A stretch of 64,000 nucleotides of DNA, taken from the NCBI GenBank assembly GCA_963804815.1, contig CAWDRU010000002.1:4934780-4998779 (forward strand), in the 5' to 3' direction. Source of the stretch: Blastocatellia bacterium. Lineage in GTDB: Bacteria; Acidobacteriota; Blastocatellia; UBA7656. Positions 10,015-36,827 of this stretch are shown in pieces. A program made the position numbers and the translations under genes. Position 1 is the stretch's first letter. Every line of letters begins with the position of its first letter. The notes below the pieces were generated by a model. That model had not been told where the DNA came from. It did no database searches and saw nothing but the letters and a program-made list of their open reading frames with translations.

Positions 10015-10517
10015 CGTCTCAGCGTCCTTTCTAAAAAAGTCAGGCGGCAGGGATAGCGATGGTGACCGCCGCTTTCCAAAAGCAGGCAACACCTATCACG
10101 GTCCGAGTAGTTCAAGCACGGGCGCAGCGATTCTTATACTTGTTTTCTAACAAGGGCGAGAGAGACTTCTCGAAAGTATTGATTTCAGTATGTGAGGAGA
10201 ACGCTCAACTGCACGCAAGCTCAAATGCTGTTAACGTGAGCACACAGCCGAAGCAGATATAATGCAAAGCGCTTTATAATACTCTTTAGTCACTCATTAG
10301 AACGTTACTATTTTCAAAGCAAGGTCAAGGTTTCGTTAAGCAAATAATTAGTTTTGTTAATTTCAGGGCGCGCGTCTTCACACTTCTTTGCAGAGAGCGT
10401 ATTCGCTAATTTGCAGTGCAAGGCGAATGCGGACTCGCGTTCGTAAGACTGGGCAGTGATGGTCTTGCCCGCACAATAATCGAAGGCGATTCTACTGATC
10501 AAACGAGAGGTTCCTAC

Positions 10518-11231: not shown

Positions 11232-11275
11232 CGCAATTCGTAAACTGCGGACTACGTAAAATGAAGGGAGAGTAG

Positions 11276-11310
11276 CTACTTATATGGTCAGGCGCTGACC
11301 ATATAAGTAG
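11276..11310 (+). terminator. perfect 16-bp-stem hairpin downstream of 10518..11231
   Basis: ctacttatatggtcag gcg ctgaccatataagtag. No U-tract follows, so it could equally be a protein-binding palindrome. Confidence 0.4.
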
Positions 11311-11515
11311 CAATTGTCGCCGTACAAATTTTGATCGATAAAAATGCTCGACCCTCTACACAATTTCGACGCAGTTGATATATACTTTGTCCGCCTTTCT
11401 CACAGATGATGGTTTCTTCTGGGTGTGATCGTGAGGGGTTGAATTCTACAACTCTCACATTAGTGATAATTTTTCCGCTTATCAGGTTTAGCTGGAACAA
11501 GGAGGTACATTACAC

Positions 11516-13018
11516 ATGTTAGTCAAACTGAACAACAAGTTTATAGTCTCAATGATGGCCGTTCTCATACTGAGCATGGCTGTACCAGCAAGGACATTTC
11601 AGTCCCCGAATGCTGGAGATGCAGTTGAGGCAGGCCCTTCTGCCATAACAAACACAATTCTTCGCTGGAACAAAATCGCGGTCGATTGCAGCGGCCTCGA
11701 CCACACGCCTGTTGCGCCGGGCGAGACCCGCGTATTCGGCGAGCAGGTCGGGCCGTGCCGGGCAGCCCGCGCGATGGCAATCGTCCATATCGCGATGTTC
11801 GAGGCGCTCAACGCCATTGTCGGCGGCTTCAAACCCTATATAACAGGTAATCGCAAAACCGGCCCCGGATCGACCGATGCGGCAGTCGCACAGGCCGCGC
11901 ATGATGCGCTGGTGGGGATGTTCCCATCGCAGAAATCGCTTCTGGACCCGAAGCTTGATGACGATCTTGCATTGATTGCAAACGGGCAACAGAAAAACAA
12001 CGGAATCGCTATCGGCAAATGGGCGGCTGCCGCGATAATTGCGATGCGCGCAAACGATCACGCGGCGCACGCCGAGCCTCGCGTCAACATAGATTACATT
12101 CCGAGCATCGCTCCGGGGATATGGCGACAAGACCCGATCAGCCATCATCCGCTCGCACTGGGCGCGCACTGGGGTGAGGTTACACCCTTCATCCTGCGTT
12201 CAGCCGAACAGTACAGGATTCCGCCTCCGCCTCCGATGAACAGCGCCGCCTATACCGCCGCCTACAACGAAGTGAAACGACTGGGCGGCGACGGTCTGGG
12301 CACTCCTACAGAGCGCACTGCGGATCAAACGTTGGCTGGCGTCTATTGGGCTTATGATGGAACCCCCAGCTTGTGCGCGCCGCCGAGGCTCTACAACCAA
12401 GTCACAACAGTCATAGCTAATCAAAAGGGCACAAGCGGAATTCAGCTGTTGCGGCTGCTGACGCTCGTAAATGTGGCTATGGCCGATGCAGGCATCGCGT
12501 CCTGGGAATCGAAGTATTTCTATCAGTTCTGGCGTCCAATCGGAGGCATACGCGAATCCGATGTGGGCACGGGCGCGACCGGTTTAGGCGATGGCAATCC
12601 CGATACTATCGGCGATCCGCTATTCTCGCCGCTCGGCGCACCGGCCAGCAATCTGACGGGGCCGAACTTCACGCCGCCTTTCCCGTCTTATCCGTCCGGA
12701 CACGCGACGTTCGGAGGCTCGCTCTTTCAGGTTCTGCGCGATTTCTACGGGACGGACAATATCCCCTTCACCTTCGTTTCGGATGAATTCAACGGGACGA
12801 CGATAGGCAACGACGGCGTTGTGCGCCCGCTGATTCCGCGCAGTTTCGCGACGCTGTCACAGGCCGAAGAAGAGAACGGCCAGAGCCGAATCTATCTCGG
12901 CATTCACTGGGCGTTCGATAAGACCGAAGGTATCGCACAGGGACGCAACGTGGGCCATTACGTTTTCAAGAATCTGTTCCTGCCGGTGCCTGCATCGAAA
13001 AAGGCTACGACAAAGTAA
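11516..13018 (+). CDS. secreted vanadium-haloperoxidase-like / PAP2-superfamily (acid phosphatase-like) protein
   Basis: All three PAP2/V-haloperoxidase signatures are present: FWRPIGG (KX6RP), PSGHATFGG (PSGH), SRIYLGIHWAFD (SRX5HX3D). AAGGAGG RBS. Signal peptide. Confidence 0.6.
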   Translation: MLVKLNNKFIVSMMAVLILSMAVPARTFQSPNAGDAVEAGPSAITNTILRWNKIAVDCSGLDHTPVAPGETRVFGEQVGPCRAARAMAIVHIAMFEALNAIVGGFKPYITGNRKTGPGSTDAAVAQAAHDALVGMFPSQKSLLDPKLDDDLALIANGQQKNNGIAIGKWAAAAIIAMRANDHAAHAEPRVNIDYIPSIAPGIWRQDPISHHPLALGAHWGEVTPFILRSAEQYRIPPPPPMNSAAYTAAYNEVKRLGGDGLGTPTERTADQTLAGVYWAYDGTPSLCAPPRLYNQVTTVIANQKGTSGIQLLRLLTLVNVAMADAGIASWESKYFYQFWRPIGGIRESDVGTGATGLGDGNPDTIGDPLFSPLGAPASNLTGPNFTPPFPSYPSGHATFGGSLFQVLRDFYGTDNIPFTFVSDEFNGTTIGNDGVVRPLIPRSFATLSQAEEENGQSRIYLGIHWAFDKTEGIAQGRNVGHYVFKNLFLPVPASKKATTK

Positions 13019-13039
13019 CTTTCTGAATTGATAAAAACA

Positions 13040-13079
13040 CTTAAGGGGGCAAACGCGATATCGTGTTTGCCCCCTTAAA
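13040..13079. terminator. bidirectional terminator hairpin between convergent genes
   Basis: ttaagggggcaaac ...loop... gtttgcccccttaa followed by AAAATTT, between the stop of 11516..13018(+) and the stop of 13107..13940(-). Confidence 0.55.
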
Positions 13080-13106
13080 ATTTGCCTCACTAAATTCAAG
13101 TCTCGA

Positions 13107-13940
13107 TTAGTTGGCCCAGTCGCCTGTAGTTTGCAGGCTCGTGAAATTCCTCAGAAATTCAGGCTCAAGCGGCGTGCCGTCCGGCTTACGAACAAAGTTG
13201 AGAACTGCGTCGGGTGCGATGCCTCCGTCTGTCGGATCTTCAATGACAGGGCAGATGCCGTACATCGGGCCTTCCGATCCGTTCGGATTGCGAAGGCGTT
13301 TGGCGGCAAAGCCTTTGCTGAGCAGGTTTTCGAGTTCACTGAGCGTTCTGATTATCGGAGTCCCGTCGAGGGCCAGTCCGTTTCGCTTCGTCAGATCGTT
13401 AAGCGCCTTTCGACCGTCCGAAGTGTTGAACGCGCGGTCCGTGTAGCTGACCCAGACGTGGAGCCATAGACCGAGAGGGTTGCCGCTGAAGTAGCCGTTG
13501 CGCAGGTCTACGATGTCGGCCTGACGATTGTTGCCCAGTCCAATCGGGTTTCCGGTGCGCGTGGGAAAGACATAAAGAATGCTTCTGTCGGCTATCTGCT
13601 TCGCCCTGCGGCCCGCTGCGTCATTGGTGAAGCCTTCGACGAATAAATCTCCCATTACTGACCAGAAAGTTACTTTGCCGTTATGCGCATAGGCGGGATT
13701 GGTTGCCAGCATTCTGACGTTTGTCTGAGACGGAAAGATCGGGCTGTCAAAGACAGATCTCGGCGGTGTGCCGTTGACACGGTTTACAATTTTGACCGGG
13801 TCCACGCCGTTCTGCCAGTAGAAAGCGTTATTGAAATCGAAGATCCGGTCTTCGACATCAGCACGAACAGACGTAAAGGATGAGATTAATAATGTGGACA
13901 TTATCAGCGATAAGGTTGCGAGCGTCGTGAATCTTTTCAT
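13107..13940 (-). CDS. hypothetical secreted protein
   Basis: Start trimmed to MKRFTTLATLSLIMSTLLISSFTSVRA (signal peptide), preceded by GGAGA. No recognisable family. Confidence 0.45.
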   Translation of the reverse strand: MKRFTTLATLSLIMSTLLISSFTSVRADVEDRIFDFNNAFYWQNGVDPVKIVNRVNGTPPRSVFDSPIFPSQTNVRMLATNPAYAHNGKVTFWSVMGDLFVEGFTNDAAGRRAKQIADRSILYVFPTRTGNPIGLGNNRQADIVDLRNGYFSGNPLGLWLHVWVSYTDRAFNTSDGRKALNDLTKRNGLALDGTPIIRTLSELENLLSKGFAAKRLRNPNGSEGPMYGICPVIEDPTDGGIAPDAVLNFVRKPDGTPLEPEFLRNFTSLQTTGDWAN

Positions 13941-14175
13941 GCTTGTATCTCCCATAATTGTTAGTTGGATCAAAGCGAATGCTGAGGAAGCCATAAGCCC
14001 TGTCATGTTATATTGAGGATGAAGACAGCGACTTGATACATGTGAGTGTCAAGAATTTGTCAGGCAAATGTTTAGTTATGTCGAGTTCGACTGACATTTC
14101 TTCACAGCGGACCGGATCACACGAACGTTTAATTAATACAGTCAGCCCGTCTCATTTTTAACAAAGGGGTTACTG

Positions 14176-14892
14176 ATGAATCGCATTCTGGTTGTTGACG
14201 ACGATTTGGATCTATGCGAACTGCTGGCAAAGTACCTGCAGCGCGAAGGGTTTGAGGTCGAGATGGTGCATAACGGCGAGCAGGGCGTAGAACGCGCCAT
14301 GTCGGGCGATTACACGCTCGTAATCTTAGACGTGATGCTGCCCGGTCTTACAGGGTTCGATGTCCTGAGCAGCATAAGAAGAAGATCGAGCGTGCCTGTG
14401 TTGATGCTGACGGCGCGCGGAGACGATGTTGACCGCATCGTGGGATTAGAGATGGGCGCGGACGATTACCTGCAAAAGCCCTTCAACCCGCGAGAGCTTA
14501 TCGCAAGAATCCGCGCCATACTGCGGCGTGCAAGGCTTGAGCCTTCCGAAGCGACTGCGCCGGTAAGCCCTGAGCGCTTTGCTGTTGGCGATGTAGAGAT
14601 GGACAAAGGCACGCGCATTGTCACGCGCGGCGGCGAGCAATTGCCGTTGACGACAGTCGAGTTCGATCTGCTGGAAGCATTGATGCGGGCTGCCGGTCAC
14701 ATTGTTTCTCGCGAAGATCTGGTGAAGTCCATACTTGGGCGCAACTTCACCCCCTATGACCGCAGCATAGATACGCATGTGAGCAATTTGCGCAAAAAGC
14801 TCGGCCACTACGTAGACGGTATCGAGCGAATAAAAACGATTCGCAGCGTCGGCTATATTTACGCCACACCGGGCGAATTGCAGAAGGAGTGA
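14176..14892 (+). CDS. OmpR-family response regulator (REC + winged helix)
   Basis: ILVVDDD...LDVMLPG receiver motifs. C-terminal trans_reg_C (RSVGYIY). Confidence 0.85.
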   Translation: MNRILVVDDDLDLCELLAKYLQREGFEVEMVHNGEQGVERAMSGDYTLVILDVMLPGLTGFDVLSSIRRRSSVPVLMLTARGDDVDRIVGLEMGADDYLQKPFNPRELIARIRAILRRARLEPSEATAPVSPERFAVGDVEMDKGTRIVTRGGEQLPLTTVEFDLLEALMRAAGHIVSREDLVKSILGRNFTPYDRSIDTHVSNLRKKLGHYVDGIERIKTIRSVGYIYATPGELQKE

Positions 14893-14899
14893 TTGGTGT

Positions 14900-16291
14900 A
14901 TGCGCAGCCTTTTTTTAAAAATATTCATCTGGTTCGGGCTGGCTATGGCGATTGTTATATCGGCGAATTTCCTGTCCTCTTATGTGACGTTTCGAGAGGA
15001 CTCGCGCGGGCGGCCTCCCGGTAATTTCACGACGATGTTCGCTCAGACAGCCGTCGAGAAGCTTGAGCGCGAAGGCAAAAATGGAGCGACCGGTTATCTT
15101 GAAGCTCTGGAAAAAACGACGCTGACCCGCCCATACCTTTTCGATCAGAACGGGGATGAAATAACCGGGCGTAACGCTCCGCCGGAGGCGAAGGAAGCGG
15201 CCAGTAAAGCGAGATCTGAAAAAGAGGTACGGTACTCTGGAAACAACCAGCTTGAATATGTAGTCAGCCCCCTTATCGCCTCCGGCGAAAACCGGTATGT
15301 CATGGTCCACCAGTTTGGCGCGCGACCGCCAAGACCGCCGTTTCTGCCTTTCTGGCCTCGTAACTGGTGGGTGCAATTGACGGCTGTGCTCGTAACGGCA
15401 GGGCTGCTCTGCTACTGGCTGGCGCGGTACATAAGCTCGCCCGTCGCCAGACTGCGAGCAGCAACACAGCAACTCGCAAGCGGAGACCTTACGGCGCGCG
15501 TGGGCGCGGCGCAGCGGAGACGGCGCGACGAGGTGGCCGATCTGGGGCGCGATTTCGACATCATGGCCGAGCGAATAGAGACTTTGATGGCTTCACAGCA
15601 GCGCCTTCTGCATGACATTTCGCATGAACTTCGCTCGCCGCTCGCGCGCTTGAAAATAGCGCTCGAACTGGCGCGGCAGGATGACGGCGCAGAAGCCGGA
15701 TGGGCTTTGGATCGCATTGAGCGCGAAGCCGACCGCTTGAATGATCTGATCGGCCAACTGCTTACGCTCGCGCGTCTGGACAGCAAATCGCCGGGGATAA
15801 ACAGCGACCCGGTCGATCTGAAACGGCTTGTGCAGGAGATCGTTTTTGACGCAGATTTCGAGGCGCGCAATCACAATCGCTCGGTGAGAATGATTACGAG
15901 CGAGGCTTGCCTTGTAATCGGCAACGAGCAACTGCTGCACAGCGCCGTAGAGAACGTAGTGCGAAACGCAATGTCATATACGGCGGAAGGCACTGCGGTC
16001 GAGGTCTCTTTGCAGTGCGAAGGCGAGAGCGCAGTGATAACGGTTCTCGATCAGGGGGCGGGAGTCCCTCAATCAGTATTGGTCGATATATTTCGCCCTT
16101 TCTATCGAGTGGCTGACGCGAGAGACAGACAATCGGGCGGCATAGGGCTGGGGCTTTCCATCAGTCAGCGCGCAGTAGAAGTTCACGGCGGAACCGTGTC
16201 GGCTTCAAACGCGCCGCGCGGCGGGCTGCTGGTTGAAATCGTTCTTCCCATTACGAAAAAGGAAGAAGCGCCCGTATCGCTGAATGGATAG
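14900..16291 (+). CDS. sensor histidine kinase (TM-HAMP-HisKA-HATPase), CpxA/EnvZ-like
   Basis: H-box HDISHELRSPLARL, N/G-box GGIGLGLSI. Two TM segments. Immediately follows the regulator. Confidence 0.85.
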   Translation: MRSLFLKIFIWFGLAMAIVISANFLSSYVTFREDSRGRPPGNFTTMFAQTAVEKLEREGKNGATGYLEALEKTTLTRPYLFDQNGDEITGRNAPPEAKEAASKARSEKEVRYSGNNQLEYVVSPLIASGENRYVMVHQFGARPPRPPFLPFWPRNWWVQLTAVLVTAGLLCYWLARYISSPVARLRAATQQLASGDLTARVGAAQRRRRDEVADLGRDFDIMAERIETLMASQQRLLHDISHELRSPLARLKIALELARQDDGAEAGWALDRIEREADRLNDLIGQLLTLARLDSKSPGINSDPVDLKRLVQEIVFDADFEARNHNRSVRMITSEACLVIGNEQLLHSAVENVVRNAMSYTAEGTAVEVSLQCEGESAVITVLDQGAGVPQSVLVDIFRPFYRVADARDRQSGGIGLGLSISQRAVEVHGGTVSASNAPRGGLLVEIVLPITKKEEAPVSLNG

Positions 16292-16398
16292 GTCTGCGAT
16301 TAGCCCTCATCCGGCGTCATCAGGGCCGGGCACCGGTCTTGGCTGCCCGTCGCCTTGATTCATTCATTCGACACGATCATCTATACTCACTTGGATTG

Positions 16399-16731
16399 CT
16401 ACTTCCCGCTCACGCTACACTCAACTCCCTCTGAGTCCTTAAACCTCGCTATGCGGCCTCCGAATATTTCAGTTGGGGCAGATGTAAACTCCACTCCATT
16501 GTCCTTCATTTCCGCATAGAATTTATCAAGGTCATCCACTCCGAACCCCAGTTGCGATGTGCCCGCAGGATTGGCTTGCGAAGCTATATGCAGGGCAAGG
16601 GTTGTTTCTCCTGTTTCAAACTCGGTCCATTCCGGAGATTGAAATCTCAAAACGAGTCCAAGCCGATCTTTGTAAAATTCGATGGCTCGCTGCATATCAC
16701 CGACGTATTTAATGGCATAGGTTAATTTCAT
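16399..16731 (-). CDS. VOC (glyoxalase/bleomycin-resistance) family protein
   Basis: Trimmed to MKLTYAIKYVGDMQRAIEFYKDRLG, a typical glyoxalase-fold N-terminus. GGAGA RBS. The ORF-track N-terminal extension is Arg-rich junk. Confidence 0.55.
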   Translation of the reverse strand: MKLTYAIKYVGDMQRAIEFYKDRLGLVLRFQSPEWTEFETGETTLALHIASQANPAGTSQLGFGVDDLDKFYAEMKDNGVEFTSAPTEIFGGRIARFKDSEGVECSVSGK

Positions 16732-16978
16732 AATCATTCTCCTCTCTTCGACATTAGATTCCAGACCGGTATTCAGATTATTAATCCGATCTTTCGACAG
16801 CCGCAACCGTCTGACAGGCAATCTGCGGTTTGAGCAGCTAAAATGAACTATTTTAAAAAATAAACACATTTGTTGAATCAATCGCGATAGATTTTTCGTC
16901 CTATAAGTGATAGAAGATAGTTAATTGCAGGCCGTTGGAAGCCTACAAAAGTTTCGCGATTTTCAAGAGGTAAGCAAC

Positions 16979-17590
16979 GTGAAAAAATATCGAGTGTTCA
17001 CTCTGGCATTCACCTTAGTAGCAGTAGCGTCTTCCAGCTTTGCTCAGGCTGGCAAAACTGCAACTTCTGTGAGGGAAACCATGAATAGAGATCGGCTTTC
17101 AACTCTGCTGTCGGCAGTAGGTGTAAGCGTCGAAGATTCGGTGTTGCCCGCAGAGGTTCAGTCTTTTCAGGAGATGAGAATTCGCTGGGATGTTGCCGAC
17201 GCAATTTCGCAGGATATGGTCCTTTCGGAACAGGAACCTGTGAACCGTGTTTTAACCGCGATTGAGCGCAAAAAGCGCGCACAGGTGTTGTCGCGGCAAC
17301 GCTCTTTGGAACTCTCGACAAACCAGCTTTTAGTAGTGGCTGTTAACGAGAAACTTCAGCTTCGCTGGTGGTCGTTGATTCCGGACCCTCGCATTATGCG
17401 CGCAGAGACGCCGGATGCCGGAGGAACGCTTAGCGGACAGGTTCTCTATCGCTCTAAAGCAGACTTTGTCATCGCTTTTCCTGACGATGAGACGATCACA
17501 GAGTTACGCATTTTTCACCCACATTGGACAGGTTCCGAGTTCATTCTGGAGCCATTAGGGGCGATTCCTTCTGATAAAAAGTTGAGATGA
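16979..17590 (+). CDS. hypothetical secreted protein
   Basis: Probable GTG start at VKKYRVFTLAFTLVAVASSSFAQA (signal peptide). The ORF-track start is TTG further upstream. Confidence 0.4.
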   Translation: MKKYRVFTLAFTLVAVASSSFAQAGKTATSVRETMNRDRLSTLLSAVGVSVEDSVLPAEVQSFQEMRIRWDVADAISQDMVLSEQEPVNRVLTAIERKKRAQVLSRQRSLELSTNQLLVVAVNEKLQLRWWSLIPDPRIMRAETPDAGGTLSGQVLYRSKADFVIAFPDDETITELRIFHPHWTGSEFILEPLGAIPSDKKLR

Positions 17591-17596
17591 AACGCT

Positions 17597-19270
17597 ATGA
17601 TAAATCAGACGTTAAAACTGATGCCGAAGCTTTTATTTCTTTTGTTTCTGTTCTGCTGTCCTGTGGACGCGATGGCCGAGTCGTTTGAGACGATTGTCAG
17701 TAACGGCAGCCCTCAGAACAGAGTGGACATCGCCATTCTCGGCGATGGTTATACGGCCAGCCAGATGCAGCAATACAGGGCCGATGTTCAGAATTTTATT
17801 CAGGGCGTATTCGCGCAAGAGCCATACAGGGAATACTCGCGTTACTATAACGTTCACAGAATTGATGTAATCAGCAGTCAATCAGGAGCCGACCATCCGG
17901 AACGCAATCCCGCAGTTTTCGTCAATACCGCGTTTGATGCAACTTACAACTGCGGCAACATTCAGCGTCTCATCTGCGTGAATACTACTAAAGTCTTCAA
18001 CGTTATAAACAACACCCTCCCGGCTTCATTCTTTGACGTTGTGTTGATTATCGTCAACGACCCTGAATACGGAGGGTCGGGCGGCAGTGTGGCCGTCGCG
18101 TCAACTAATGGCGCGGTCGTAGAGCTTGTATTACACGAAGTGGGCCACAGCTTCGGACTCCTCGCCGACGAATACGCCGGAGGAGGTCCGAGTTGCAATG
18201 CCGGTATCGAGCCTTCCGAGCCTAATGCCACCAAAGAGACCGTGCGCGCCTTGATTAAATGGAATCAATGGATCGCGCTCACCACTCCCGTCCCGACAAC
18301 GACGAGTACGCCGGGCGTGCCGGGACTGTACGAGAGCGCCAAATACTGCGACTTTGGATTGTACAGACCAACGTTTGACTCCAAGATGCGGTCGCTTGAT
18401 CGCCCGTTCGAGCAGATAAACACCGAGCAGCATGTCAAGCGCGTATACAACCTTGTCTCGCCAATAGACTCCAGCCAGCCGCCCGGAAATAATCTGGTGA
18501 TTACAAAGGGACAGATACAGCCATTCAGCCTGACAACGCCAATACCGTTTACGCACACGCTTGGTGTGACATGGTTCGTTGACGGCCAGATGCAGGGTAC
18601 AGGGCTGACGTTCAATCTTGATTCCAGCGCGCTCAGTATCGGCTCTCATACGGTAGAAGGTCGGGTGAGCGACGCGACGCCTCTGGTTAGAAGTGATCCC
18701 CAGCAACTTTTATCCGAACAGCGAAGCTGGAATGTTACAGTCCAGTGTGCTCTTTCGCTTTCAAAGACCGGTCAGTTCTTCCCGATGAACGGTGGAGACG
18801 ACAGCGTAACCATATCGGCAGGGGCTGGCTGTGGCTGGACGGCTGTGAGCAATGACAACTGGATCATTATCACCTCAGCCAATAGCGGCACAACCAGCAA
18901 TGTCGTTACCTACACAGTGAGAGAGAACTTCACTGCAAGCGCGCGTACAGGTTCGCTTACAATCGCAGGACAGACCTTCATAGTGATTCAGAATGGCGTA
19001 TCGGGCGGGAGTTGCAGTTACTCGATCTCTCCCGCGTTCCAGTCTTTCACTAAGACCGGCGGGAGCGGCGCTGTGAGCGTATCGGCTGGTTCGGGTTGCG
19101 CATGGGGCGCTGTAAGCAACGTCAACTGGATAACGATTACTTCGGGCAATAACGGCATAGGGAATGGCACGGTGAATTACACAGTAGCGGCTAACCCCGG
19201 CACCAATGGCCGCGCAGGCAAGATAACGATTGCCGGAAAAACTTACTCGGTGAAACAAACGGGTAATTAG
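17597..19270 (+). CDS. secreted zinc metallopeptidase (M64 IgA-peptidase-like HEVGH) with two C-terminal Ig-like/BACON-like repeats
   Basis: VLHEVGHSFGLLADEY. Tandem about 75-aa repeats GCGWTAVSNDNWIIITSANSG...TYTV and GCAWGAVSNVNWITITSGNNG...NYTV. Confidence 0.5.
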   Translation: MINQTLKLMPKLLFLLFLFCCPVDAMAESFETIVSNGSPQNRVDIAILGDGYTASQMQQYRADVQNFIQGVFAQEPYREYSRYYNVHRIDVISSQSGADHPERNPAVFVNTAFDATYNCGNIQRLICVNTTKVFNVINNTLPASFFDVVLIIVNDPEYGGSGGSVAVASTNGAVVELVLHEVGHSFGLLADEYAGGGPSCNAGIEPSEPNATKETVRALIKWNQWIALTTPVPTTTSTPGVPGLYESAKYCDFGLYRPTFDSKMRSLDRPFEQINTEQHVKRVYNLVSPIDSSQPPGNNLVITKGQIQPFSLTTPIPFTHTLGVTWFVDGQMQGTGLTFNLDSSALSIGSHTVEGRVSDATPLVRSDPQQLLSEQRSWNVTVQCALSLSKTGQFFPMNGGDDSVTISAGAGCGWTAVSNDNWIIITSANSGTTSNVVTYTVRENFTASARTGSLTIAGQTFIVIQNGVSGGSCSYSISPAFQSFTKTGGSGAVSVSAGSGCAWGAVSNVNWITITSGNNGIGNGTVNYTVAANPGTNGRAGKITIAGKTYSVKQTGN

Positions 19271-19283
19271 CGAACGGATAAAG

Positions 19284-19328
19284 ATGCGACGGGTTCTCAG
19301 AAATTCAAACCCGTCGCATCTTTGTCAT
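19284..19328 (+). terminator. rho-independent terminator of the M64 peptidase gene
   Basis: gatgcgacgggtt ...11 nt... aacccgtcgcatc followed by TTTGTCATC. Confidence 0.6.
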
Positions 19329-19570
19329 CTATGGCTCACTCATTTACATCTCGCATCATTGCAGCAGGTCTTTCATCTACCTGCGCCAGAGCGAAGTCGA
19401 AGGATTAGGCGCTCGCATGGTTAGAGCGGGCCTATGAAGCGCAAAGCGATCTTCCGGTTTTCATCAAGGTAGAACCGACCTGGGACAACCTTCGCTCGGA
19501 CGCACGTTTTCAAGACCTCCTGCGTCGCATCGGTCTTCAATGATGATTTATATATTTTCTATTCCGTTTG

Positions 19571-19933
19571 TTAGCTGATCTTTTCACTCGAATCAGGCTT
19601 CTTCGACGAGCGAGGTTTGCGCTCGCTTAGACGAGTGCCGCCTACCTGAGCATATTGCGCCGAATTGGGACCAAAAACGGCCTTCATTCCGCTGCGTCCT
19701 CGCGTGTTATAACTCTCAACCAGTTTCATCTGATCGCTGGTATCGTCAACCAGTTTTGACAGATCGGTACGCATTTCATCGCGAGTTTGCTTCAGGTTGC
19801 GCAGTTTGGTTATAGAGCTTTTCAGGCTCTCAATCGTCACATCTCCCAAAGCAAATGTAGGGTTTTCACTCCAAACCTGAGCTAAACGCTCGGCATCAGC
19901 AATCACCGAATCCACCGTTTTATTTGAAGCCAT
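19571..19933 (-). CDS. hypothetical protein
   Basis: Start at MASNKT preceded by AGGAGG. No family recognised. Its upstream region carries palindromes (see regulatory feature). Confidence 0.4.
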   Translation of the reverse strand: MASNKTVDSVIADAERLAQVWSENPTFALGDVTIESLKSSITKLRNLKQTRDEMRTDLSKLVDDTSDQMKLVESYNTRGRSGMKAVFGPNSAQYAQVGGTRLSERKPRSSKKPDSSEKIS

Positions 19934-19967
19934 CTTTTTCCTCCTTGCATAAGTAAGCATTATCTCT

Positions 19968-19992
19968 TATTGAGAGATAATGATCTTTTGTT
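19968..19992. promoter_or_regulatory. operator-like palindrome upstream of 19571..19933(-): CATTATCTCT-N5-AGAGATAATG
   Basis: Perfect 10-bp arms. ATCTCT/AGAGAT half-sites recur at least five more times in the AT-rich stretch 19970-20215. Confidence 0.4.
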
Positions 19993-20351
19993 TATAGACG
20001 AGTATCTCTCGCTCAGAGAGCATCATCTTCTGTTTAGAGATTGTTATTTTTATTGAGAGAACGTCATCTATCGTTGACAGTAAATCATCTCTCGTTAAAT
20101 TATATTTTTTATTTTGCTAATATTTTTTTTGTCATCAGGCAGATTTATTATTATTAATTATATTTGTGCCCGCATTGCGATTAGCGAGCCAACTATATCT
20201 CTCATAGTTTTTGGTGTCAATAAAAACTGTGATTTTTAATACTAACAATTATTTCGCGTGCGCCACTGCGGTGAATCGCTACGGCGAGGACTCAACAGTT
20301 ATTCAGATTATAACGCCTGATATTCTTTGTAAAAATCATCATAAGTAATGT

Positions 20352-20566
20352 AACGTGAATTCGACATAAGAATCAGCCCTGAAAGGGCGAAATTCAATAG
20401 CACAGGGCATCGCCCTGTGTCGTACATCGTGAAATAAACCAAGTGATTTATTTCGCCCTTTCAGGGCTTGTGAGATGGTGGTGTTGCATACCGTGGGTTT
20501 CACCCACGGCTATTGAATTTCGCCCTTTCAGGGCTTTTACTTCGATTATTATGTCGAACTCGCGTT
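20352..20566 (+). mobile_element. MITE-like structured repeat, family A copy 1 (about 215 bp, internal about 24-bp deletion vs other copies)
   Basis: Terminal inverted repeats AACGTGAATTCGACATAAG ... ATTATGTCGAACTCGCGTT. Internal GCCCTGAAAGGGCGAAAT units in inverted pairs. Flanking AATGT direct duplication. Confidence 0.7.
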
Positions 20567-20767
20567 AATGTAGGCATTTAAAAATTCGAGATTCAAAATA
20601 AACACGACCCGAAGCGCCATTGCCTATTTGTTTTATTATGCAGTAAACGGTCTTTAGAATCAGATATTCACTTACACCCCATTACTGATTTCACACTTAT
20701 CCGGCCAGTTGCATCGAGACTAAAACTGTATGGTAACTGTCCCTATCTGGCGATCAAAATATTCCGG

Positions 20768-20905
20768 GCTGTAACAAAGTAACTGTAGGGGCAGGGCTTG
20801 TCCCTGCCCGGATCGCCGATAGGCGATGATCTGTCATGGCTTTCAGCCATTCGGGCAGGGACAAGCCCTGCCCCTACATTGATTGTCAACCGACTTTGTT
20901 ACAGC
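20768..20905. repeat. palindromic repeat family B copy 1 (BIME/REP-like), with 13-bp TIR GCTGTAACAAAGT and flanking 13-bp direct repeats CAAAATATTCCGG
   Basis: Inner arms TGTAGGGGCAGGGCTTGTCCCTGCCCGGATCGC / CCATTCGGGCAGGGACAAGCCCTGCCCCTACA are inverted relative to each other and each is itself a hairpin. Direct repeats at 20755-20767 and 20911-20923. Confidence 0.6.
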
Positions 20906-20975
20906 CCTGTCAAAATATTCCGGCAATTAGCGTTACGGATAGAGCGCCAGTTGGAATAATTAAAGCGTTAGGGGA

Positions 20976-22727
20976 TTATCGTTTCAAAGCGAAGCTTGCG
21001 TCGCGATAAACCTCTTTACCTTCTAACAAAGTGAGCAGCACTTTCGCATTGTGGATTTCGTGCGGCGCAATCTCAAACAGATTACGGTCCACGACTATCA
21101 GGTCGGCGGCTTTGCCCGTTTCAATCGAACCTGTCTCGGCCTCTTCAAAGTTCAGATACGCGCCGTTGATCGTATAGCCCGCAAGCATCGTTTCGAGATC
21201 AACTCGTTCTTCGGCAATCCACGCCTCTCCCGGCCCTTTATCAAGCCCTCTGCGCGTTATCGCTACCTGAATCGCATCGAGCGGGTTCATCGAAGTGACT
21301 GACCAGTCGCTGCCGCAAGCTATGACTGCGCCTGTTGCAGAAAGGCTGTGAATCGGGTAGAGCCATCGCGAGCGCTCAGGCCCAAGCACGGGCAGCGTAA
21401 GTTCCGTTATGTAAGTATCGGCATAAGCCCAGAGCGGCTGGAAGTTCGCAATGACGCCGAGTCGCCGAAAGCGCGGCACATCCTGCGGGTTGAAAAGTTC
21501 TATATGGGCTATCGTGTGCCGGGAGTCTCGGCTGCCGTTCTTTGAGCGGGCGAACTCGAAAGCGTCGAGCGCGTTTCTGATGGCCCTGTCGCCGATGGCA
21601 TGAACGTGGACTTGAAACCCTTCGCGGTCGAGCGCCGCGACCAGAGGATTGAATACATCAGGCTCGACGTTCGCCTTGCCGCGATCACCCTCAGTTCCGA
21701 CATAAGGCTCAAGCAACGCTGCTGTGCGGGCTTCGATCACGCCGTCCGCAAAGATCTTTACGGCAGTGGCGCGCAACCTGCGGCCCTGATACCGCTTTCT
21801 CATCTCTGCGAGGCGCGACACCTCTGCCGCGCCTTTCGACGTATCGACCGACAGCGCCGCGACGACTCGCGCAGTCAACTCGCCGCGACGGTCAAGTTCG
21901 GCGTAAGTTTTAAGATACGTTTCGCTCACACTTGCGTCCTGAAACGAAGTGATGCCGAAGCGATTTGCCATCTCAAGCCCGCGTCGAAGCCCTTTTGTGT
22001 AATCCTCAGTCGAATACTGAGGCAGGTGACGCTCGACAAGCGCCATCGCATCTTCGCGAAGCGTGCCCGTAGGCTCATTCGTCGCGGGGTCGCGCTCGAT
22101 GCGGCCCGGTTTCGGATCAGGCGTGTTTTTCGTTATTCCGGCAATTTCGAGAGCGCGCGAATTCGCCCACGCTGAATGGCCGTCGGCGGCATACAAAAAG
22201 ACAGGCCGGTCAGGAATCGTTTTGTCGAGACTGGATTTGTGCGGATTGGCATTTGGAAAAAGCGGAAGCTGCCAGCCCGACCCGCGAATCCACTTTTTCT
22301 GCGGGTTCTGCTCCGCGTACCGCCGAACAGCGTCAAGTATCTGCTGTTCGGAAGTAAGCTCGCTCAACTGGCATTCATCCATCTCTATGCCGCCCGACAC
22401 GACATGGACATGCGAGTCATGAAAGCTCGGCAACAGCATCCTGCCTCGTAAATCGACGACGACAGTCTGCGGGCCAATCCATTTTTGAGCCTTGCTGTCG
22501 GGGCCGACATAAACTATGCGGCCCTGGCTTACGGCTACGGTTTCAGCCCAACTGCGCGCTGCGTCGAGCGTGTAGACAGCGCCGTTGCGGAATATCAGGT
22601 CAGCAGTCTTTGTTGCGGGTTTCTGAGAGATGGCAAAAGCATTGCCTGACGAGAAGAGCACAAACAGGAGCAGGCTTGAAAGAGTTCGGCGCACGAGCAA
22701 CCTCCGAAAAGTGAAAGTGAGAAGCAC
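20976..22727 (-). CDS. secreted amidohydrolase-family metal-dependent hydrolase (amidohydrolase_3 / YtcJ-like)
   Basis: HDSHVHV near the N-terminus and HVHAIGDRA...HIELF later, typical of the amidohydrolase 3 family. Signal peptide. Confidence 0.7.
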   Translation of the reverse strand: MLLTFTFRRLLVRRTLSSLLLFVLFSSGNAFAISQKPATKTADLIFRNGAVYTLDAARSWAETVAVSQGRIVYVGPDSKAQKWIGPQTVVVDLRGRMLLPSFHDSHVHVVSGGIEMDECQLSELTSEQQILDAVRRYAEQNPQKKWIRGSGWQLPLFPNANPHKSSLDKTIPDRPVFLYAADGHSAWANSRALEIAGITKNTPDPKPGRIERDPATNEPTGTLREDAMALVERHLPQYSTEDYTKGLRRGLEMANRFGITSFQDASVSETYLKTYAELDRRGELTARVVAALSVDTSKGAAEVSRLAEMRKRYQGRRLRATAVKIFADGVIEARTAALLEPYVGTEGDRGKANVEPDVFNPLVAALDREGFQVHVHAIGDRAIRNALDAFEFARSKNGSRDSRHTIAHIELFNPQDVPRFRRLGVIANFQPLWAYADTYITELTLPVLGPERSRWLYPIHSLSATGAVIACGSDWSVTSMNPLDAIQVAITRRGLDKGPGEAWIAEERVDLETMLAGYTINGAYLNFEEAETGSIETGKAADLIVVDRNLFEIAPHEIHNAKVLLTLLEGKEVYRDASFALKR

Positions 22728-22840
22728 ATACTGTTGCGGGCCAAACAGTACCGAAAGCGATAGCGCCCGTGTAAAAAAAGATTGTTCGAGCTTGAATACA
22801 CCCGTGCGCTATCGCTTCCTGTACCGTCCTGCTTCCTGGC

Positions 22841-23887
22841 TCACTTCACCTTCTTCGCCTGAGCCTCCTGCCCGTTTACATTGAGATTCATGTGAGTCAC
22901 CTGACCTGTTGCATCTTTTACGAAAGTAATTTTCACTCCTACAGTCGGAACGTTAAAGACGGTCTCTGATTCAGCGATCAACTCTTCTTTCGTATCGTTG
23001 TTGGGCTGGCCGTAGAGCCGGTCGTTCTCTCTGGTTATATTGAGAGGCCCGAACGGAGTATCGTACTGTCCCACATAGGCGTCGAAATTTTTCGGATCAA
23101 CTTTGACGGCAGGCGGCGCAGACGCAGATGGCGTCGCCTTTGGCACGTCCACAACCTGCGAGGATGTCTGTGAAGCAAGACCCGACAATTGCGATGCGAC
23201 TACCTGCCAGCGACCGTTGCGCTTCACATATACATCCGTGTAGCGGTGCTGAAGGTTATAGTCCTGACCTTTTTGAGGCCCGTCCCGATAGGTCCCTCTC
23301 TGAATGACCTTGCCCGTCAGCACAGCCGTGTCGCCATAGATTCGCACCTTCGTATCGGCAGTCATAAATATAGGCGGCGCTCCTGCGGGAGCGGGATTTT
23401 TGAGTCTGGCTATTTCATCGGCCTTAGTCATGACTGTGCCATCAGAAAAGGTGATCGTAAAATCGTCTGCTTCTATGCGTTCCATTGCCGCCACATCGCG
23501 CTTTGTATAGGCGTCGAGCCATTCGCGCTCAAGCTTCAGCAGGTCCTGTTCGACAGAGCCTGCCTGAGTCGAGGGCGAAGCTGTGTCTGCGGGCTTTTTT
23601 GGCTCTTCGGCTTTCCTGTCTTCGACCTTCATGCCCGGCTTGTATTCGGCGAGCCATTCAATATCGATGGCGTCCGCGCCGCGCCGCGCCTTTTCTGATA
23701 TAAGCCACTGGCCGCGCTCGTTCCATGGCGCGCCGCCTTCGAGCGCTACGTGACAGAAGGTACAATCTTTCGCGCCGAACTTGCGTGCTTTGTTCAGGAA
23801 AAGCGGATAGCCGAACGACTCTCCCGCGAGCGCCGTAACAAAAGCCCCGACGAAAAAGAGCGCAATTGAAATTTTAATAGTCTTCAC
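22841..23887 (-). CDS. secreted protein: N-terminal CxxCH (cytochrome c-like) module fused to SnoaL-like/DUF4440 domains
   Basis: Signal peptide, then KDCTFCHV (CXXCH). Later segments (WLDAYTKRDVAAMERIEADDFTITFSDGTVMTKADEIARL) look NTF2/SnoaL-like. C-terminal beta domain. Confidence 0.5.
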   Translation of the reverse strand: MKTIKISIALFFVGAFVTALAGESFGYPLFLNKARKFGAKDCTFCHVALEGGAPWNERGQWLISEKARRGADAIDIEWLAEYKPGMKVEDRKAEEPKKPADTASPSTQAGSVEQDLLKLEREWLDAYTKRDVAAMERIEADDFTITFSDGTVMTKADEIARLKNPAPAGAPPIFMTADTKVRIYGDTAVLTGKVIQRGTYRDGPQKGQDYNLQHRYTDVYVKRNGRWQVVASQLSGLASQTSSQVVDVPKATPSASAPPAVKVDPKNFDAYVGQYDTPFGPLNITRENDRLYGQPNNDTKEELIAESETVFNVPTVGVKITFVKDATGQVTHMNLNVNGQEAQAKKVK

Positions 23888-23985
23888 CTTGACTCTCCCT
23901 TGCGTTTTAAAATATGTGCGGATAAATGACAGTATACACTACGAGCAAAACCGGGGTAGTTCAAGTCAGAGCTGTTGCGAGTAGA

Positions 23986-24104
23986 TGTAGGGGCAGGGCT
24001 TGTCCCTGCCCGGATCGCGAAGCGATGACAGACTTATAATTCGGTAGATTTCAAATCAATCATGGCCTTACGGCCATTCGGGCAGGGACAAGCCCTGCCC
24101 CTAC
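23986..24104. repeat. palindromic repeat family B copy 2 (inner arms only)
   Basis: TGTAGGGGCAGGGCTTGTCCCTGCCCGGATCGC ...57 nt... CCATTCGGGCAGGGACAAGCCCTGCCCCTAC. Lies between the stops of 22841..23887 and 24127..24906. Confidence 0.6.
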
Positions 24105-24126
24105 TATGCATTCAACCGAACTCGTT

Positions 24127-24906
24127 TCATCTGGCGCAGGTCAGCGCGCGACCGCCGTCGATGCCTATGGTTGCGCCTGTAATCCAGCTCGCGCGATCAG
24201 ATGCCAGAAAGCAGATCAACTCTGCGACCTCCCCGGCTTCGCCAACGCGACCGAGCGGGTGCGTGGTCTTACTGTGTTCGAGAAACGCTCGATAGGCATC
24301 CGCGTTCATTCCGCCCGAACGATGAAGACTGGTAACGACGACGCCCGGATTCACCGCGTTGACTCTGACACCTTTCGCGGCAAGCTCAAGCGCGGCGCAG
24401 CGTGTAAGCTGATCGAGTCCCGCTTTGCTCACGCAATAGGCCAGCACGCCCGGAAAAGAGCGCGGTCCGGTCACGCTCGACACGTTGACGATGTTTCCGC
24501 GCGAGCGTTCCAGATGGGGAACGGCCATCTGCATCAGGTGAAAGACCGAGCGCAGGTTGATGTTCATCATCTCGTCCCAAAGCTCAAGCGATGTCTCTTC
24601 TATGCGACCCGATTTGAGAATGCCCGCCGCATTGATTAACACATCAAGCCCGTCCATCATCTCAGCCCCTCGCGTCACGCAGGATTGGCTTTGCCTTTCA
24701 TCTGAAAGATCAGCCGCGATGATGAAAGCCTCTCCCTTATCGGCTGCCGCTTCATCCACAACGCGCTCAAGCGCGCTCTCGCTTCGGCTTACCAGCGTGA
24801 CGGTCGCGCCCGCGTTTAAGAAAAGCTTTGCCGTTGCGCGACCAATGCCGCTCGATGCGCCCGTCACTATAACTTTTTTTCGCGTTCTTTCTTCATGCAT
24901 AATCAC
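24127..24906 (-). CDS. SDR family oxidoreductase
   Basis: TGASSGIGRATA Rossmann motif, NAAG, and the YCVSK catalytic Tyr-x3-Lys. Confidence 0.85.
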   Translation of the reverse strand: MIMHEERTRKKVIVTGASSGIGRATAKLFLNAGATVTLVSRSESALERVVDEAAADKGEAFIIAADLSDERQSQSCVTRGAEMMDGLDVLINAAGILKSGRIEETSLELWDEMMNINLRSVFHLMQMAVPHLERSRGNIVNVSSVTGPRSFPGVLAYCVSKAGLDQLTRCAALELAAKGVRVNAVNPGVVVTSLHRSGGMNADAYRAFLEHSKTTHPLGRVGEAGEVAELICFLASDRASWITGATIGIDGGRALTCAR

Positions 24907-34136: not shown

Positions 34137-34270
34137 AAATGCCTCCTGTTGTTGTTTGCGGAATGTAGTTGTTTATCTCTTCAAGTGGTAAGACATAGTG
34201 ATGCAAGCGCGGAGTCTAGCAAGCTGCGGTTAAACGATTATGAAGCCAAAATTAAATCTTTGTTACAGGT

Positions 34271-36744: not shown

Positions 36745-36827
36745 AATTTTATGTAAAATCCTCATCGTTGCTTATGCTCGCCACTTTACTTTGGCGTGGA
36801 GTACACTCGCTTTCAACGGAGGGACAG

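What the first reader, a model, noticed from the sequence alone, without database searches (positions are those of the whole stretch)
20755..24104. Second palindromic repeat family (BIME/REP-like), one copy bracketed by 13-bp TIRs and 13-bp direct repeats
The arm TGTAGGGGCAGGGCTTGTCCCTGCCCGGATCGC occurs with its inverse at 20784-20878 and again at 23986-24104. Each arm is itself a GGGCAGGG-CTTGT-CCCTGCCC hairpin. The first copy is additionally framed by the inverted repeat GCTGTAACAAAGT / ACTTTGTTACAGC and by direct repeats CAAAATATTCCGG, which are long for a TSD and may be an att-like site. Both copies sit in intergenic gaps next to the stops of convergent genes, as REP/BIME elements do. The first copy lies 180 bp from a family-A MITE and next to a 370-bp AT-rich stretch, which marks an insertion hotspot.
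Basis: seen in the sequence. Interest (0 to 1): 0.5.

Follow-up and report, generated by a model that had tools for sequence, protein, structure and literature searches.

The report
REP hairpin pair inside IS-derived MITE
The two palindromic repeats are copies of a 146-bp non-coding mobile element that carries a pair of classic bacterial REP hairpins between the ends of an ISAs1-family insertion sequence, so it is a new combination of two well-known kinds of selfish DNA and not a new system.

Summary
The repeats are real. Each arm is a GTAG-tagged REP: GTAG plus the hairpin GGGCAGGG-CTTGT-CCCTGCCC. Two arms are paired head-to-head, like a REPIN or BIME, and each arm has a second small hairpin beside it.

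The same 25-mer occurs in more than 117 genome loci, mostly Blastocatellia and Pyrinomonadaceae. In related genomes it flanks REP-associated tyrosine transposase (RAYT) genes (L113, L034).

The "TIRs and long direct repeats" around copy 1 are not an att site. They are the ends of a 1.3-kb ISAs1-family insertion sequence, CAGGGCTGTAACAAAGT, plus a 10-bp target-site duplication, TCAAAATATT. Full-length IS copies have the same ends and make 9-10-bp duplications. Three more REP-carrying copies elsewhere have different 10-bp duplications.

Copy 1 (20764-20909) is therefore a MITE whose cargo is a REP dimer. Copy 2 (23967-24133) is an older copy of the same MITE. Its IS ends have decayed, but its REP arms are still 25/25 identical to copy 1.

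All four hairpins show compensatory changes across copies.

The "convergent genes" claim fails for copy 2, which lies between two co-directional genes, and is doubtful for copy 1. The window contains no RAYT or ISAs1 transposase gene.

Verdict: new variant of known kinds, moderate interest.

The parts
20754..20763 (.). Left copy of the 10-bp target-site duplication, TCAAAATATT.
   Evidence: Identical to 20910-20919, directly abutting the element ends. Other copies of the element have different 10-bp duplications.
20764..20780 (+). Terminal inverted repeat CCGGGCTGTAACAAAGT, 16/17 to the IS end. It corresponds to the right (IRR) end of the parent ISAs1-family IS.
   Evidence: The IS ends are CAGGGCTGTAACAAAGT / CACGGCTGTAACAAAGT in L147, L121 and L176-L181.
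20785..20809 (+). REP unit 1: GTAG head plus hairpin GGGCAGGG-CTTGT-CCCTGCCC.
   Evidence: The same 25-mer flanks RAYT genes in L113 and L034.
20812..20827 (+). Small hairpin ATCGCC-GATA-GGCGAT next to REP 1.
   Evidence: The structure is conserved with compensatory changes across copies.
20836..20850 (+). Small hairpin ATGGCT-TTC-AGCCAT next to REP 2.
   Evidence: At least 12 different fully paired stems occur at this position in other copies.
20853..20877 (-). REP unit 2, the inverted copy, which puts the GTAG heads on the outside (a head-to-head dimer).
20879..20909 (-). Left (IRL) end of the parent IS: the 17-nt inverted repeat CAGGGCTGTAACAAAGT (17/17) plus 14 subterminal nt, CGGTTGACAATCAA.
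   Evidence: Matches the first 31 nt or so of the full-length IS, CAGGGCTGTAACAAAGTCGCTTGACAATTAA.
20910..20919 (.). Right copy of the 10-bp target-site duplication, TCAAAATATT.
23967..24133 (-). Copy 2: a decayed copy of the same MITE, 167 bp, in the same orientation as copy 1. A central insertion of about 25 nt is present, the inverted repeats are reduced to 10/17 and 11/17, and there is no duplication left.
   Evidence: An nhmmer profile built from intact copies aligns model positions 7-145 to 24129-23968, E = 1.7e-24. See also alignment A2.
23987..24011 (+). Copy 2, REP unit 1 (25/25 identical to copy 1).
24014..24026 (+). Copy 2, small hairpin ATCGC-GAA-GCGAT.
24062..24077 (+). Copy 2, small hairpin ATGGCC-TTAC-GGCCAT. 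On the minus strand it is followed by a T-rich tail, which is terminator-like.
24080..24104 (-). Copy 2, REP unit 2 (25/25 identical to copy 1).

Best explanation
Both loci are copies of one non-autonomous transposable element (a MITE).

Structure. The element has the two ends of a roughly 1306-bp ISAs1-family insertion sequence: about 31 nt of the left end and about 20 nt of the right end. In place of the transposase gene it carries a 93-nt cargo. The cargo is a head-to-head dimer of GTAG-type REP hairpins, each followed by a second small hairpin.

Copy 1 (20764-20909). This copy was inserted by an ISAs1-type DDE transposase supplied in trans. That is inferred from the identical inverted repeats and from the 10-bp target duplication, which the full-length IS also makes.

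Copy 2 (23967-24133). This is an older insertion. Its IS ends have drifted but its REP hairpins stayed intact.

The REP module. It is the same sequence that flanks RAYT (Y1/HUH transposase) genes in related Pyrinomonadaceae, and it also exists there as plain REP dimers without IS ends. The cargo is therefore a REPIN-like unit that gained a second, RAYT-independent route of spread. Alternatively, it landed in a MITE that then amplified.

Hairpin conservation. The hairpins are kept as structures through compensatory changes, while the IS ends decay. This implies a constraint on the hairpins themselves: RAYT recognition or repair of single-stranded DNA hairpins, or a host-level RNA role.

Possible RNA role. 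Both copies lie just 3' of minus-strand genes and would be co-transcribed into very stable structures. The plausible roles are 3'-end protection or attenuation, as is known for E. coli REPs. This is inferred, not shown.
For: Shown.
1. REP identity. The arm is a GTAG head plus an 8-bp GC-rich stem and a 5-nt loop, and it is exact in all four arms.
2. Distribution. More than 117 genome loci carry it, and the loop is almost always CTTGT, CTTGC or CTCGT.
3. RAYT link. The L113 ORF between inverted REPs scores 82.7 bits against NF047646 (cut-off 80). The syntenic 182-aa ORF in L034 scores 105.2 bits and is flanked by the same REP. RAYT-family hits lie within 8 kb of the REP in 7 of the 117 loci.
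4. IS ends. A metagenome scan with CAGGGCTGTAACAAAGT found full-length elements, for example L147 1448-2752 (1305 bp). Their ORF scores 236.7 bits against NF033564, ISAs1 family transposase. A 79%-identical homologue is named 'ISAs1 family transposase [Blastocatellia bacterium]'.
5. Target duplications. Full-length IS copies have 10, 9, 10, 10 and 10 bp (L121, L176-L179). REP-carrying MITE copies have 10/10 (window), 10/10 (L123), 10/10 (L126) and 9/10 (L117), each with a different sequence.
6. Junctions. The boundaries between IS ends and cargo fall at the same positions in every intact copy, so the chimera arose once and then spread as a unit.
7. Covariation. All 29 base pairs of the four hairpins show double changes. 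96.9% of cells are paired, against 82.5% after shuffling and 45-54% after sliding the partners. Small hairpin 2 has at least 12 different fully paired stems.
8. Differential decay. In copy 2 the inverted repeats are 10/17 and 11/17, but both REP arms are 25/25.
9. IS-end traces. Such traces accompany the four-hairpin dimers (11 of 16 sites) but not the plain REP dimers.
Against: - The 64-kb window contains no ISAs1 transposase gene and no RAYT gene. Whether this genome has either could not be tested.
- No empty-site allele was found to prove the insertion.
- The left inverted repeat of copy 1 has one mismatch (CCGGG instead of CAGGG). This makes the flanking direct repeat look 14 nt long.
- Some full-length IS copies (L147, L160, L162) and two other MITEs with the same ends (L128, L156) show no duplication.
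- The covariation alignment was fitted to the model and includes both strands of each site, which inflates the counts.
- Apparent compensatory change in palindromes can arise without selection, through hairpin-templated repair.
- Any RNA-level function is inference only.
Confidence: 0.8

Rival explanations
1. A plain REPIN/BIME copied only by a RAYT tyrosine transposase. The outer inverted and direct repeats would be incidental flanking sequence.
For: The arms are canonical GTAG REPs in head-to-head dimers. RAYT genes flanked by the same REP exist in relatives. Plain dimers without IS ends are common.
Against: - The outer repeats match the ends of an autonomous ISAs1-family IS at 17/17 and 16/17, plus 12 of the next 14 nt.
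- Four independent copies have exact or near-exact 10-bp duplications with different sequences.
- IS200/IS605-type Y1 transposases have no terminal inverted repeats and make no such duplications (PMC2817692).
Confidence: 0.07
2. An ordinary MITE whose internal palindrome merely resembles a REP. On this view there is no relationship to RAYTs and the hairpins are neutral filler.
For: MITEs often have palindromic interiors. The same IS ends carry unrelated cargos in L128, L156 and L151/L169/L136.
Against: - The cargo arms are identical over 25 nt to the REPs that flank RAYT genes and to hundreds of stand-alone REPs and REP dimers.
- The hairpins persist with compensatory changes while the IS ends decay.
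Confidence: 0.06
3. A host cis-acting RNA element, such as a 3'-end stabiliser or attenuator, or a small RNA gene, that happens to be repeated. On this view mobility is secondary.
For: - Both copies lie 20-70 nt downstream of minus-strand gene stops.
- Predicted folds are extremely stable: -108.9 kcal/mol (z = -13) for copy 1 and -87 kcal/mol (z = -10) for copy 2.
- There is strong covariation.
- A terminator-like hairpin with a T-rich tail lies on the minus strand inside copy 2.
Against: - No Rfam family matches. The only hits are spurious sub-threshold microRNA models.
- The structure is symmetric on both strands.
- Related sites show no bias toward 3' ends: 19 co-directional, 10 convergent and 9 divergent.
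- Target duplications and IS ends show that the copies arrived by transposition.
Confidence: 0.07

Closest known systems
GTAG-type REPs, their head-to-head dimers and REPINs with RAYT transposases (Nunvar 2010, PMC2817692; Bertels & Rainey 2011, PMC3116915; Di Nocera 2013, PMC3733652)
   Same: - A GTAG tetranucleotide head next to a GC-rich hairpin of 6-13 bp.
- Dimers with the GTAG heads outside, 20-100 bp apart.
- An extragenic position.
- RAYT genes flanked by the same REPs in inverted orientation, shown in relatives (L113, L034).
   Different: - Here the dimer sits between DDE-type IS ends and has a 10-bp target duplication, which Y1 transposases do not make.
- Each REP has an extra conserved small hairpin beside it.
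- The host is Acidobacteriota (Blastocatellia). In the 2013 survey's main text, Acidobacteria are mentioned only for RAYT-like genes flanked by long TIRs.
MITEs derived from DDE insertion sequences; parent here is an ISAs1-family IS
   Same: - 146 bp and non-coding.
- Terminal inverted repeats identical to those of a 1.3-kb autonomous IS.
- The same target duplication length as the parent IS.
- Multiple copies with unrelated flanks.
   Different: The interior is not simply a deleted IS. It is a REP dimer that also exists independently in the same lineage and is conserved better than the IS ends.
[quoted passage not shown]
   Same: REP dimers regularly nested inside a longer inverted-repeat shell.
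   Different: In the passages of that paper read here, the outer palindrome was not traced to an IS and no target duplication is mentioned. Here the shell is identified as ISAs1 ends with a 10-bp duplication.
E. coli BIMEs
   Same: Mosaic elements of inverted REPs with short conserved inter-REP motifs, located mostly 3' of genes.
   Different: There is no evidence here for alternating Y/Z REP types or for IHF or gyrase sites. The sequences are unrelated, and BIMEs have no IS ends or target duplications.

Membership tests
GTAG-type REP | Short (20-40 bp) GC-rich imperfect palindrome able to form a stem-loop | tested here: met
   GGGCAGGG-CTTGT-CCCTGCCC, an 8-bp stem with a 5-nt loop, exact in all four arms. 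Stem covariation is seen (GGGCAGCC/GGCTGCCC, GGGCAACC/GGTTGCCC, GGGCGGGG/CCCCGCCC).
GTAG-type REP | Conserved GT(A/G)G tetranucleotide at one end of the palindrome | tested here: met
   GTAG immediately 5' of the stem in all four arms, and invariant in alignment A3.
GTAG-type REP | High copy number per genome, mostly extragenic | tested here: inconclusive
   Four REPs in this 64-kb window. One MAG (DATLMC01) contributes at least 11 loci. A whole-genome count for this organism was not possible.
GTAG-type REP / REPIN-RAYT system | A RAYT gene (Y1/HUH transposase with the NP(L/V)(R/K)xG motif next to the catalytic Tyr) flanked by the same REPs in inverted orientation | tested here: inconclusive
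   Met in related genomes. L034: 182 aa, 105.2 bits against NF047646, with motifs MPDHFHG and YIELNPARDG, and REPs on both sides. L113: 82.7 bits, with REPs at 4125(+) and 4650(-). Not found in the window, and the rest of this genome could not be searched.
REPIN | Two REPs in inverted orientation separated by a short spacer, able to form one long hairpin | tested here: met
   The arms are 43 nt apart in copy 1 and 68 nt apart in copy 2. The minimum-free-energy fold pairs the two arms. However, in L123, L126, L007 and L039 the two arms differ, so only the local hairpins are conserved.
REPIN | Duplication depends on RAYT, with no target-site duplication | tested here: not met
   Copy 1 and three relatives have 10-bp duplications outside DDE-type inverted repeats. 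RAYT dependence itself cannot be tested with these tools.
MITE of an ISAs1-family IS | Terminal inverted repeats matching those of an autonomous IS that encodes an ISAs1-family DDE transposase | tested here: met
   17/17 and 16/17 to the ends of L147, L121 and L176-L181. The transposase scores 236.7 bits against NF033564 (cut-off 70) and carries Pfam DDE_Tnp_1 and DDE_Tnp_1_assoc.
MITE of an ISAs1-family IS | Target-site duplication of the same length as the parent IS | tested here: met
   IS copies: 10, 9, 10, 10 and 10 bp. MITE copies: 10, 10, 10 and 9/10.
MITE of an ISAs1-family IS | Small, non-coding, several copies with unrelated flanks | tested here: met
   145-148 bp with no ORF. Copies occur in the window (two), L117 (two), L118, L123, L126, L168 and L078.
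MITE of an ISAs1-family IS | Autonomous partner present in the same genome | not testable with these tools
   None in the window. The IS is present in Blastocatellia MAGs (P0048; L180).
Integrative element att site / integron attC | The same core sequence repeated at both borders in every copy (att), or R''/R' GTTRRRY cores (attC) | tested here: not met
   The flanking repeats differ in every copy: TCAAAATATT, ATCAAATAGC, GTCGTTGACG and A[C/T]TAAAAGCC. No attC cores are seen.
Any Rfam RNA family | Match at or above the family's gathering score | tested here: not met
   Only sub-threshold microRNA models hit the long hairpin, at 22-33 bits against gathering scores of 80-149.

The most novel reading that the evidence does not exclude
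A REPIN-type REP dimer has captured the ends of a DDE (ISAs1-family) insertion sequence. It thereby gained a fast, RAYT-independent route of spread that makes target duplications, while its hairpins remain under the constraint that maintains ordinary REPs.

The same IS ends also carry other hairpin-pair cargos (L156 and others). This suggests a modular 'hairpin-cargo MITE' system in Acidobacteriota, which would blur the proposed sharp divide between slow, vertically inherited REPINs and fast, parasitic MITEs.
Probability: 0.45. Interest if true: 0.6.

Novelty: new variant of a known kind. Interest (0 to 1): 0.4.

Why it matters
REPINs and MITEs are currently described as distinct classes. REPINs are said to be copied slowly by a domesticated, single-copy RAYT and inherited vertically. 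MITEs are said to parasitise DDE transposases and turn over quickly (Bertels & Rainey, bioRxiv 10.1101/2021.07.10.451892).

An element that is both gives a natural test case. It could show which enzyme actually copies REP dimers. It could also show why REP hairpins are preserved while the surrounding transposon ends decay.

There are practical consequences too:
- It explains long "TSD-like" repeats around a REP.
- It flags a repeat that breaks or chimerises MAG assemblies.
- It extends GTAG REP/RAYT systems to Blastocatellia.

Tried and rejected
- Rfam, at gathering and permissive thresholds. Nothing was found for the element. The only hits were Acido-Lenti-1 in the neighbouring family-A element and spurious microRNA models.
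- Full-text search for the REP sequence strings. Only unrelated PCR primers came back.
- Search for ISfinder-style figures on ISAs1 ends and duplications. None were found in the held papers, and PMC7190074 is not held. The family assignment therefore rests on the NCBIfam hit and on duplications measured here.
- Exact look-up of the amidohydrolase. It is not on record, probably because the called start differs. The M64 peptidase look-up worked, but the >1-Mb contig that should be this genome was not returned.
- tblastn of the RAYT and of the ISAs1 transposase against the window. No hits.
- Viral contig scan for the REP. Only 6 single hits in 2.9 million contigs, so there is no phage link.
- att site or integron reading. 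Rejected because the flanking repeats differ between copies.
- Intrinsic terminator reading for the REP hairpins. Rejected because no T-run follows them. Only the small hairpin in copy 2 looks terminator-like.
- MAFFT alignment A3. It misaligned the small hairpins, so it was replaced by a covariance-model alignment, A4.


Full report
**Observation**

The 33-nt arm TGTAGGGGCAGGGCTTGTCCCTGCCCGGATCGC occurs four times in the window, as two inverted pairs:
- 20784-20816(+) and 20846-20878(-)
- 23986-24018(+) and 24073-24105(-)

Dinucleotide-preserving shuffles gave no matches. The 21-nt hairpin core is exact in all four arms.

Copy 1 is framed by two further repeats:
- a perfect 15-nt inverted repeat, GGGCTGTAACAAAGT, at 20766-20780 and 20893-20907
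- a 14-nt direct repeat, TCAAAATATTCCGG, at 20754-20767 and 20910-20923

The sequence observation is therefore correct.

**Gene context**

The gene-context part of the finding is not correct.
- Copy 2 lies between the stop of an SDR gene (24127..24906, minus strand) and the start of a DUF4440/SnoaL gene (22841..23887, minus strand).
- Copy 1 lies 3' of an amidohydrolase gene (20976..22727, minus strand). Its other neighbour is a minus-strand 129-aa ORF.

**What the arm is**

Each arm is GTAG followed by an 8-bp GC-rich stem and a 5-nt loop. That is the definition of a GTAG-tagged REP (PMC3733652). The two arms have their GTAG heads outside. This is the "HH" dimer, which that survey reports as the commonest arrangement.

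- Most were Pyrinomonadaceae or Blastocatellia.
- Others came from Chloroflexota, Bacteroidota, Armatimonadota, Planctomycetota and further phyla.
- The free loop was CTTGT, CTTGC or CTCGT in 122 of 143 occurrences.

**Link to RAYT**

- In L113 (Pyrinomonadaceae), two inverted REPs 500 bp apart enclose an ORF that passes NCBIfam NF047646, "REP-associated tyrosine transposase" (82.7 bits, cut-off 80).
- The syntenic locus L034 has a full-length 182-aa version scoring 105.2 bits. It has the HUH motif (MPDHFHG) and YIELNPARDG, and REPs on both sides. Both genes sit between a DAGK-like gene and rpiB.
- L106 (Blastocatellia) has another RAYT, scoring 89.7 bits.
- In total, RAYT-family hits lie within 8 kb of the REP in 7 of 117 loci. 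By my rough estimate, a typically single-copy gene would be expected in about 0.2 of them.
- No RAYT is encoded in the window itself.

**What the bracket is**

Comparison with L117 and L078 showed that the outer inverted repeat is part of a conserved unit and really begins with CAG.

A metagenome scan with CAGGGCTGTAACAAAGT returned three kinds of element:
1. Full-length elements of about 1306 bp. Their 395-aa ORF is an ISAs1-family transposase: 236.7 bits against NF033564, plus Pfam DDE_Tnp_1 and DDE_Tnp_1_assoc.
2. Short elements with the same ends but unrelated interiors (L128, L156, L151/L169/L136).
3. Short elements with the same ends around a REP dimer (L123, L126, L168).

A 79%-identical transposase is annotated "ISAs1 family transposase [Blastocatellia bacterium]".

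One 5.7-Mb contig carries at least four identical IS copies. Their target duplications are 9, 10, 10 and 10 bp. L121 has a 10-bp duplication.

The REP-carrying short elements have these duplications:

| Copy | Duplication | Match |
|---|---|---|
| Window copy 1 | TCAAAATATT | 10/10 |
| L123 | ATCAAATAGC | 10/10 |
| L126 | GTCGTTGACG | 10/10 |
| L117 | A[C/T]TAAAAGCC | 9/10 |

It is extended by a chance 4-nt match, because the left inverted repeat reads CCGGG instead of CAGGG.

On the right-hand side of the window, the element also keeps 14 subterminal nucleotides of the IS left end: CGGTTGACAATCAA in the window against CGCTTGACAATTAA in the IS.

IS200/IS605-type tyrosine transposases have no terminal inverted repeats and make no such duplications (PMC2817692). 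The insertion of copy 1 is therefore attributed to the DDE enzyme.

**Copy 2**

A profile built from intact copies aligns to 24129-23968 across model positions 7-145, with E = 1.7e-24. In alignment A2 the ends read CAG-ATGAAACGAGT...ACTCGCAACAGCTCTG. By my count that is 10/17 and 11/17 identity to the inverted repeats.

There is a central insertion of about 25 nt, and no duplication remains. Both REP arms are nevertheless 25/25 identical to copy 1.

Copy 2 is thus an older insertion of the same MITE, spanning 23967-24133. Its last 7 nt supply most of the final Arg codon and the stop codon of the SDR gene.

**Structure conservation**

The interior has four local hairpins: REP, small hairpin, small hairpin, REP.

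A covariance model built on 14 copies and aligned to 117 matches gave these results:
- 96.9% of cells paired, against 82.5% after shuffling and 45-54% after sliding the partners
- double-sided changes at all 29 pairs

The small hairpin next to the REP has at least 12 different fully paired stems, for example ATGGTGC/GCACCAT, ATTTTGC/GCAAAAT and ATCGAGC/GCTCGAT.

In L123, L126, L007 and L039 the two REP arms of one dimer differ (inner stem GG/CC against CC/GG or AACC/GGTT). The local hairpins are therefore conserved but the long inter-arm stem is not.

Three caveats apply:
- The alignment was fitted to the model.
- It includes both strands of each site.
- Palindromes can self-correct without selection.

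**Relation between cargo and shell**

The junctions between IS ends and cargo fall at the same positions in all intact copies. This points to a single origin followed by spread as a unit.

Among 16 four-hairpin dimers:
- 6 have an intact inverted repeat on at least one side
- 5 have vestigial traces (10-12 of 17 matches; 10 or more occurs in 7% of random windows, 11 or more in 1.7%)
- 5 have none

Plain REP dimers sit at the null level.

**Position**

A crude ORF-based survey of 38 related sites gave 19 co-directional, 10 convergent and 9 divergent. That is the 2:1:1 ratio expected without bias.

**Fold and function**

Copy 1 folds at -108.9 kcal/mol (z = -13) and copy 2 at -87 kcal/mol (z = -10). 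No T-run follows the REP hairpins. Only the small hairpin in copy 2 is terminator-like. Any role in 3'-end protection or attenuation is inference from what is known for E. coli REPs.

**Comparison and novelty**

The REP and RAYT parts are standard. The MITE part is standard. The combination has loose precedents: Anabaena GTAG-15 dimers sit inside long palindromes, and Pseudomonas TIRs are built from degenerate REPs. In the passages of that paper read here, the shell was not traced to a DDE insertion sequence and no target duplication is mentioned.

I rate this a new variant of known kinds. Its main interest is that it sits across the REPIN/MITE distinction drawn by Bertels and Rainey.

**Not testable here**

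- Whether this genome encodes the IS or a RAYT.
- How many copies this genome holds.
- Whether an empty-site allele exists.

Noticed in passing
window 20351-20567; about 34270-34500; about 36510-36750: The 'family-A' element is a 215-240-bp MITE. It has the inverted repeats TAACGTGAATTCGACATAA... and short flanking direct repeats (AATGT, ACAGGT, AAAATT). All six Rfam Acido-Lenti-1 (RF01687) hits in the window are the inverted hairpin modules inside these three copies. Here, then, the 'sRNA' motif is a MITE component.
   Followed up: partly
L118 13164-13320 (GCA_049590935.1, JBAWDW010000290.1) versus window 20764-20916: A MAG contig is 99.96% identical to window 7597-20916. It then diverges inside the MITE's right-hand part and continues into a TonB-receptor locus, with no target duplication. 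This is either recombination between two MITE copies or a repeat-induced assembly chimera. Either way it shows at least one more copy with an identical 93-nt core.
   Followed up: partly
window 24127-24135: The decayed end of copy 2 (CAGATGA on the minus strand) supplies most of the last Arg codon and the TGA stop of the SDR gene 24127..24906(-).
   Followed up: no
L156 1841-2014; L128 554-716; L151, L169, L136: The same ISAs1 ends enclose other cargos. These include another inverted hairpin pair (GGAGTTCCGCCTTTAGGCGGAA...) in L156 and a plain internal-deletion derivative in L128. One IS has therefore spawned several MITE families. None of them has an Rfam match.
   Followed up: partly
L076 699-1430; L080 4179-4850; L009 2115-2924: In Bacteroidota, RAYT-like ORFs (53-58 bits against NF047646, below the cut-off) carry the REP in frame inside the coding sequence, between the HUH and Tyr motifs. 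It is translated as ...VGAGLAPA... and ...AGASPAPT....
   Followed up: partly
L014, L036, L049, L072 (Caldimicrobium); L030, L057, L114 (Chloroflexota): The REP belongs to a cross-phylum superfamily, GTAGGGGC-NNNN-loop-NNNN-GCCC. Arrays of different stem variants lie side by side. The exact 25-mer is found in at least 10 phyla.
   Followed up: no
L034 1412-1960 and L113 4162-4623: The RAYT genes of two Pyrinomonadaceae MAGs sit at the same chromosomal position, between a DAGK-like gene and rpiB. This fits the single-copy, vertically inherited behaviour described for RAYTs. The L113 copy lacks an obvious start codon for its N-terminal 30 residues.
   Followed up: partly
L177-L179 (ERZ25039588 contig_268): The identical ISAs1 copies in this 5.7-Mb contig lie in regions crowded with other IS (IS110, IS66, IS481, IS3), toxin-antitoxin genes, TIR-domain genes, group II intron reverse transcriptases and a type I R-M system. 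No GTAGGGGC REP occurs in the 85 kb sampled.
   Followed up: no
L160 154-1341(-) and 1571-2701(+): Two different ISAs1-family transposase genes (29% identical) lie back to back, with about 230 bp between the two ORFs.
   Followed up: no
window 19958-19982 and 20192-20220: An 11-bp perfect palindrome, CATTATCTCTTATTGAGAGATAATG, overlaps the start of the 129-aa ORF. A near-consensus promoter, TTGACA-17-TATAGT, lies about 230 bp upstream on the minus strand. This may be an operator-promoter pair in the AT-rich stretch.
   Followed up: no
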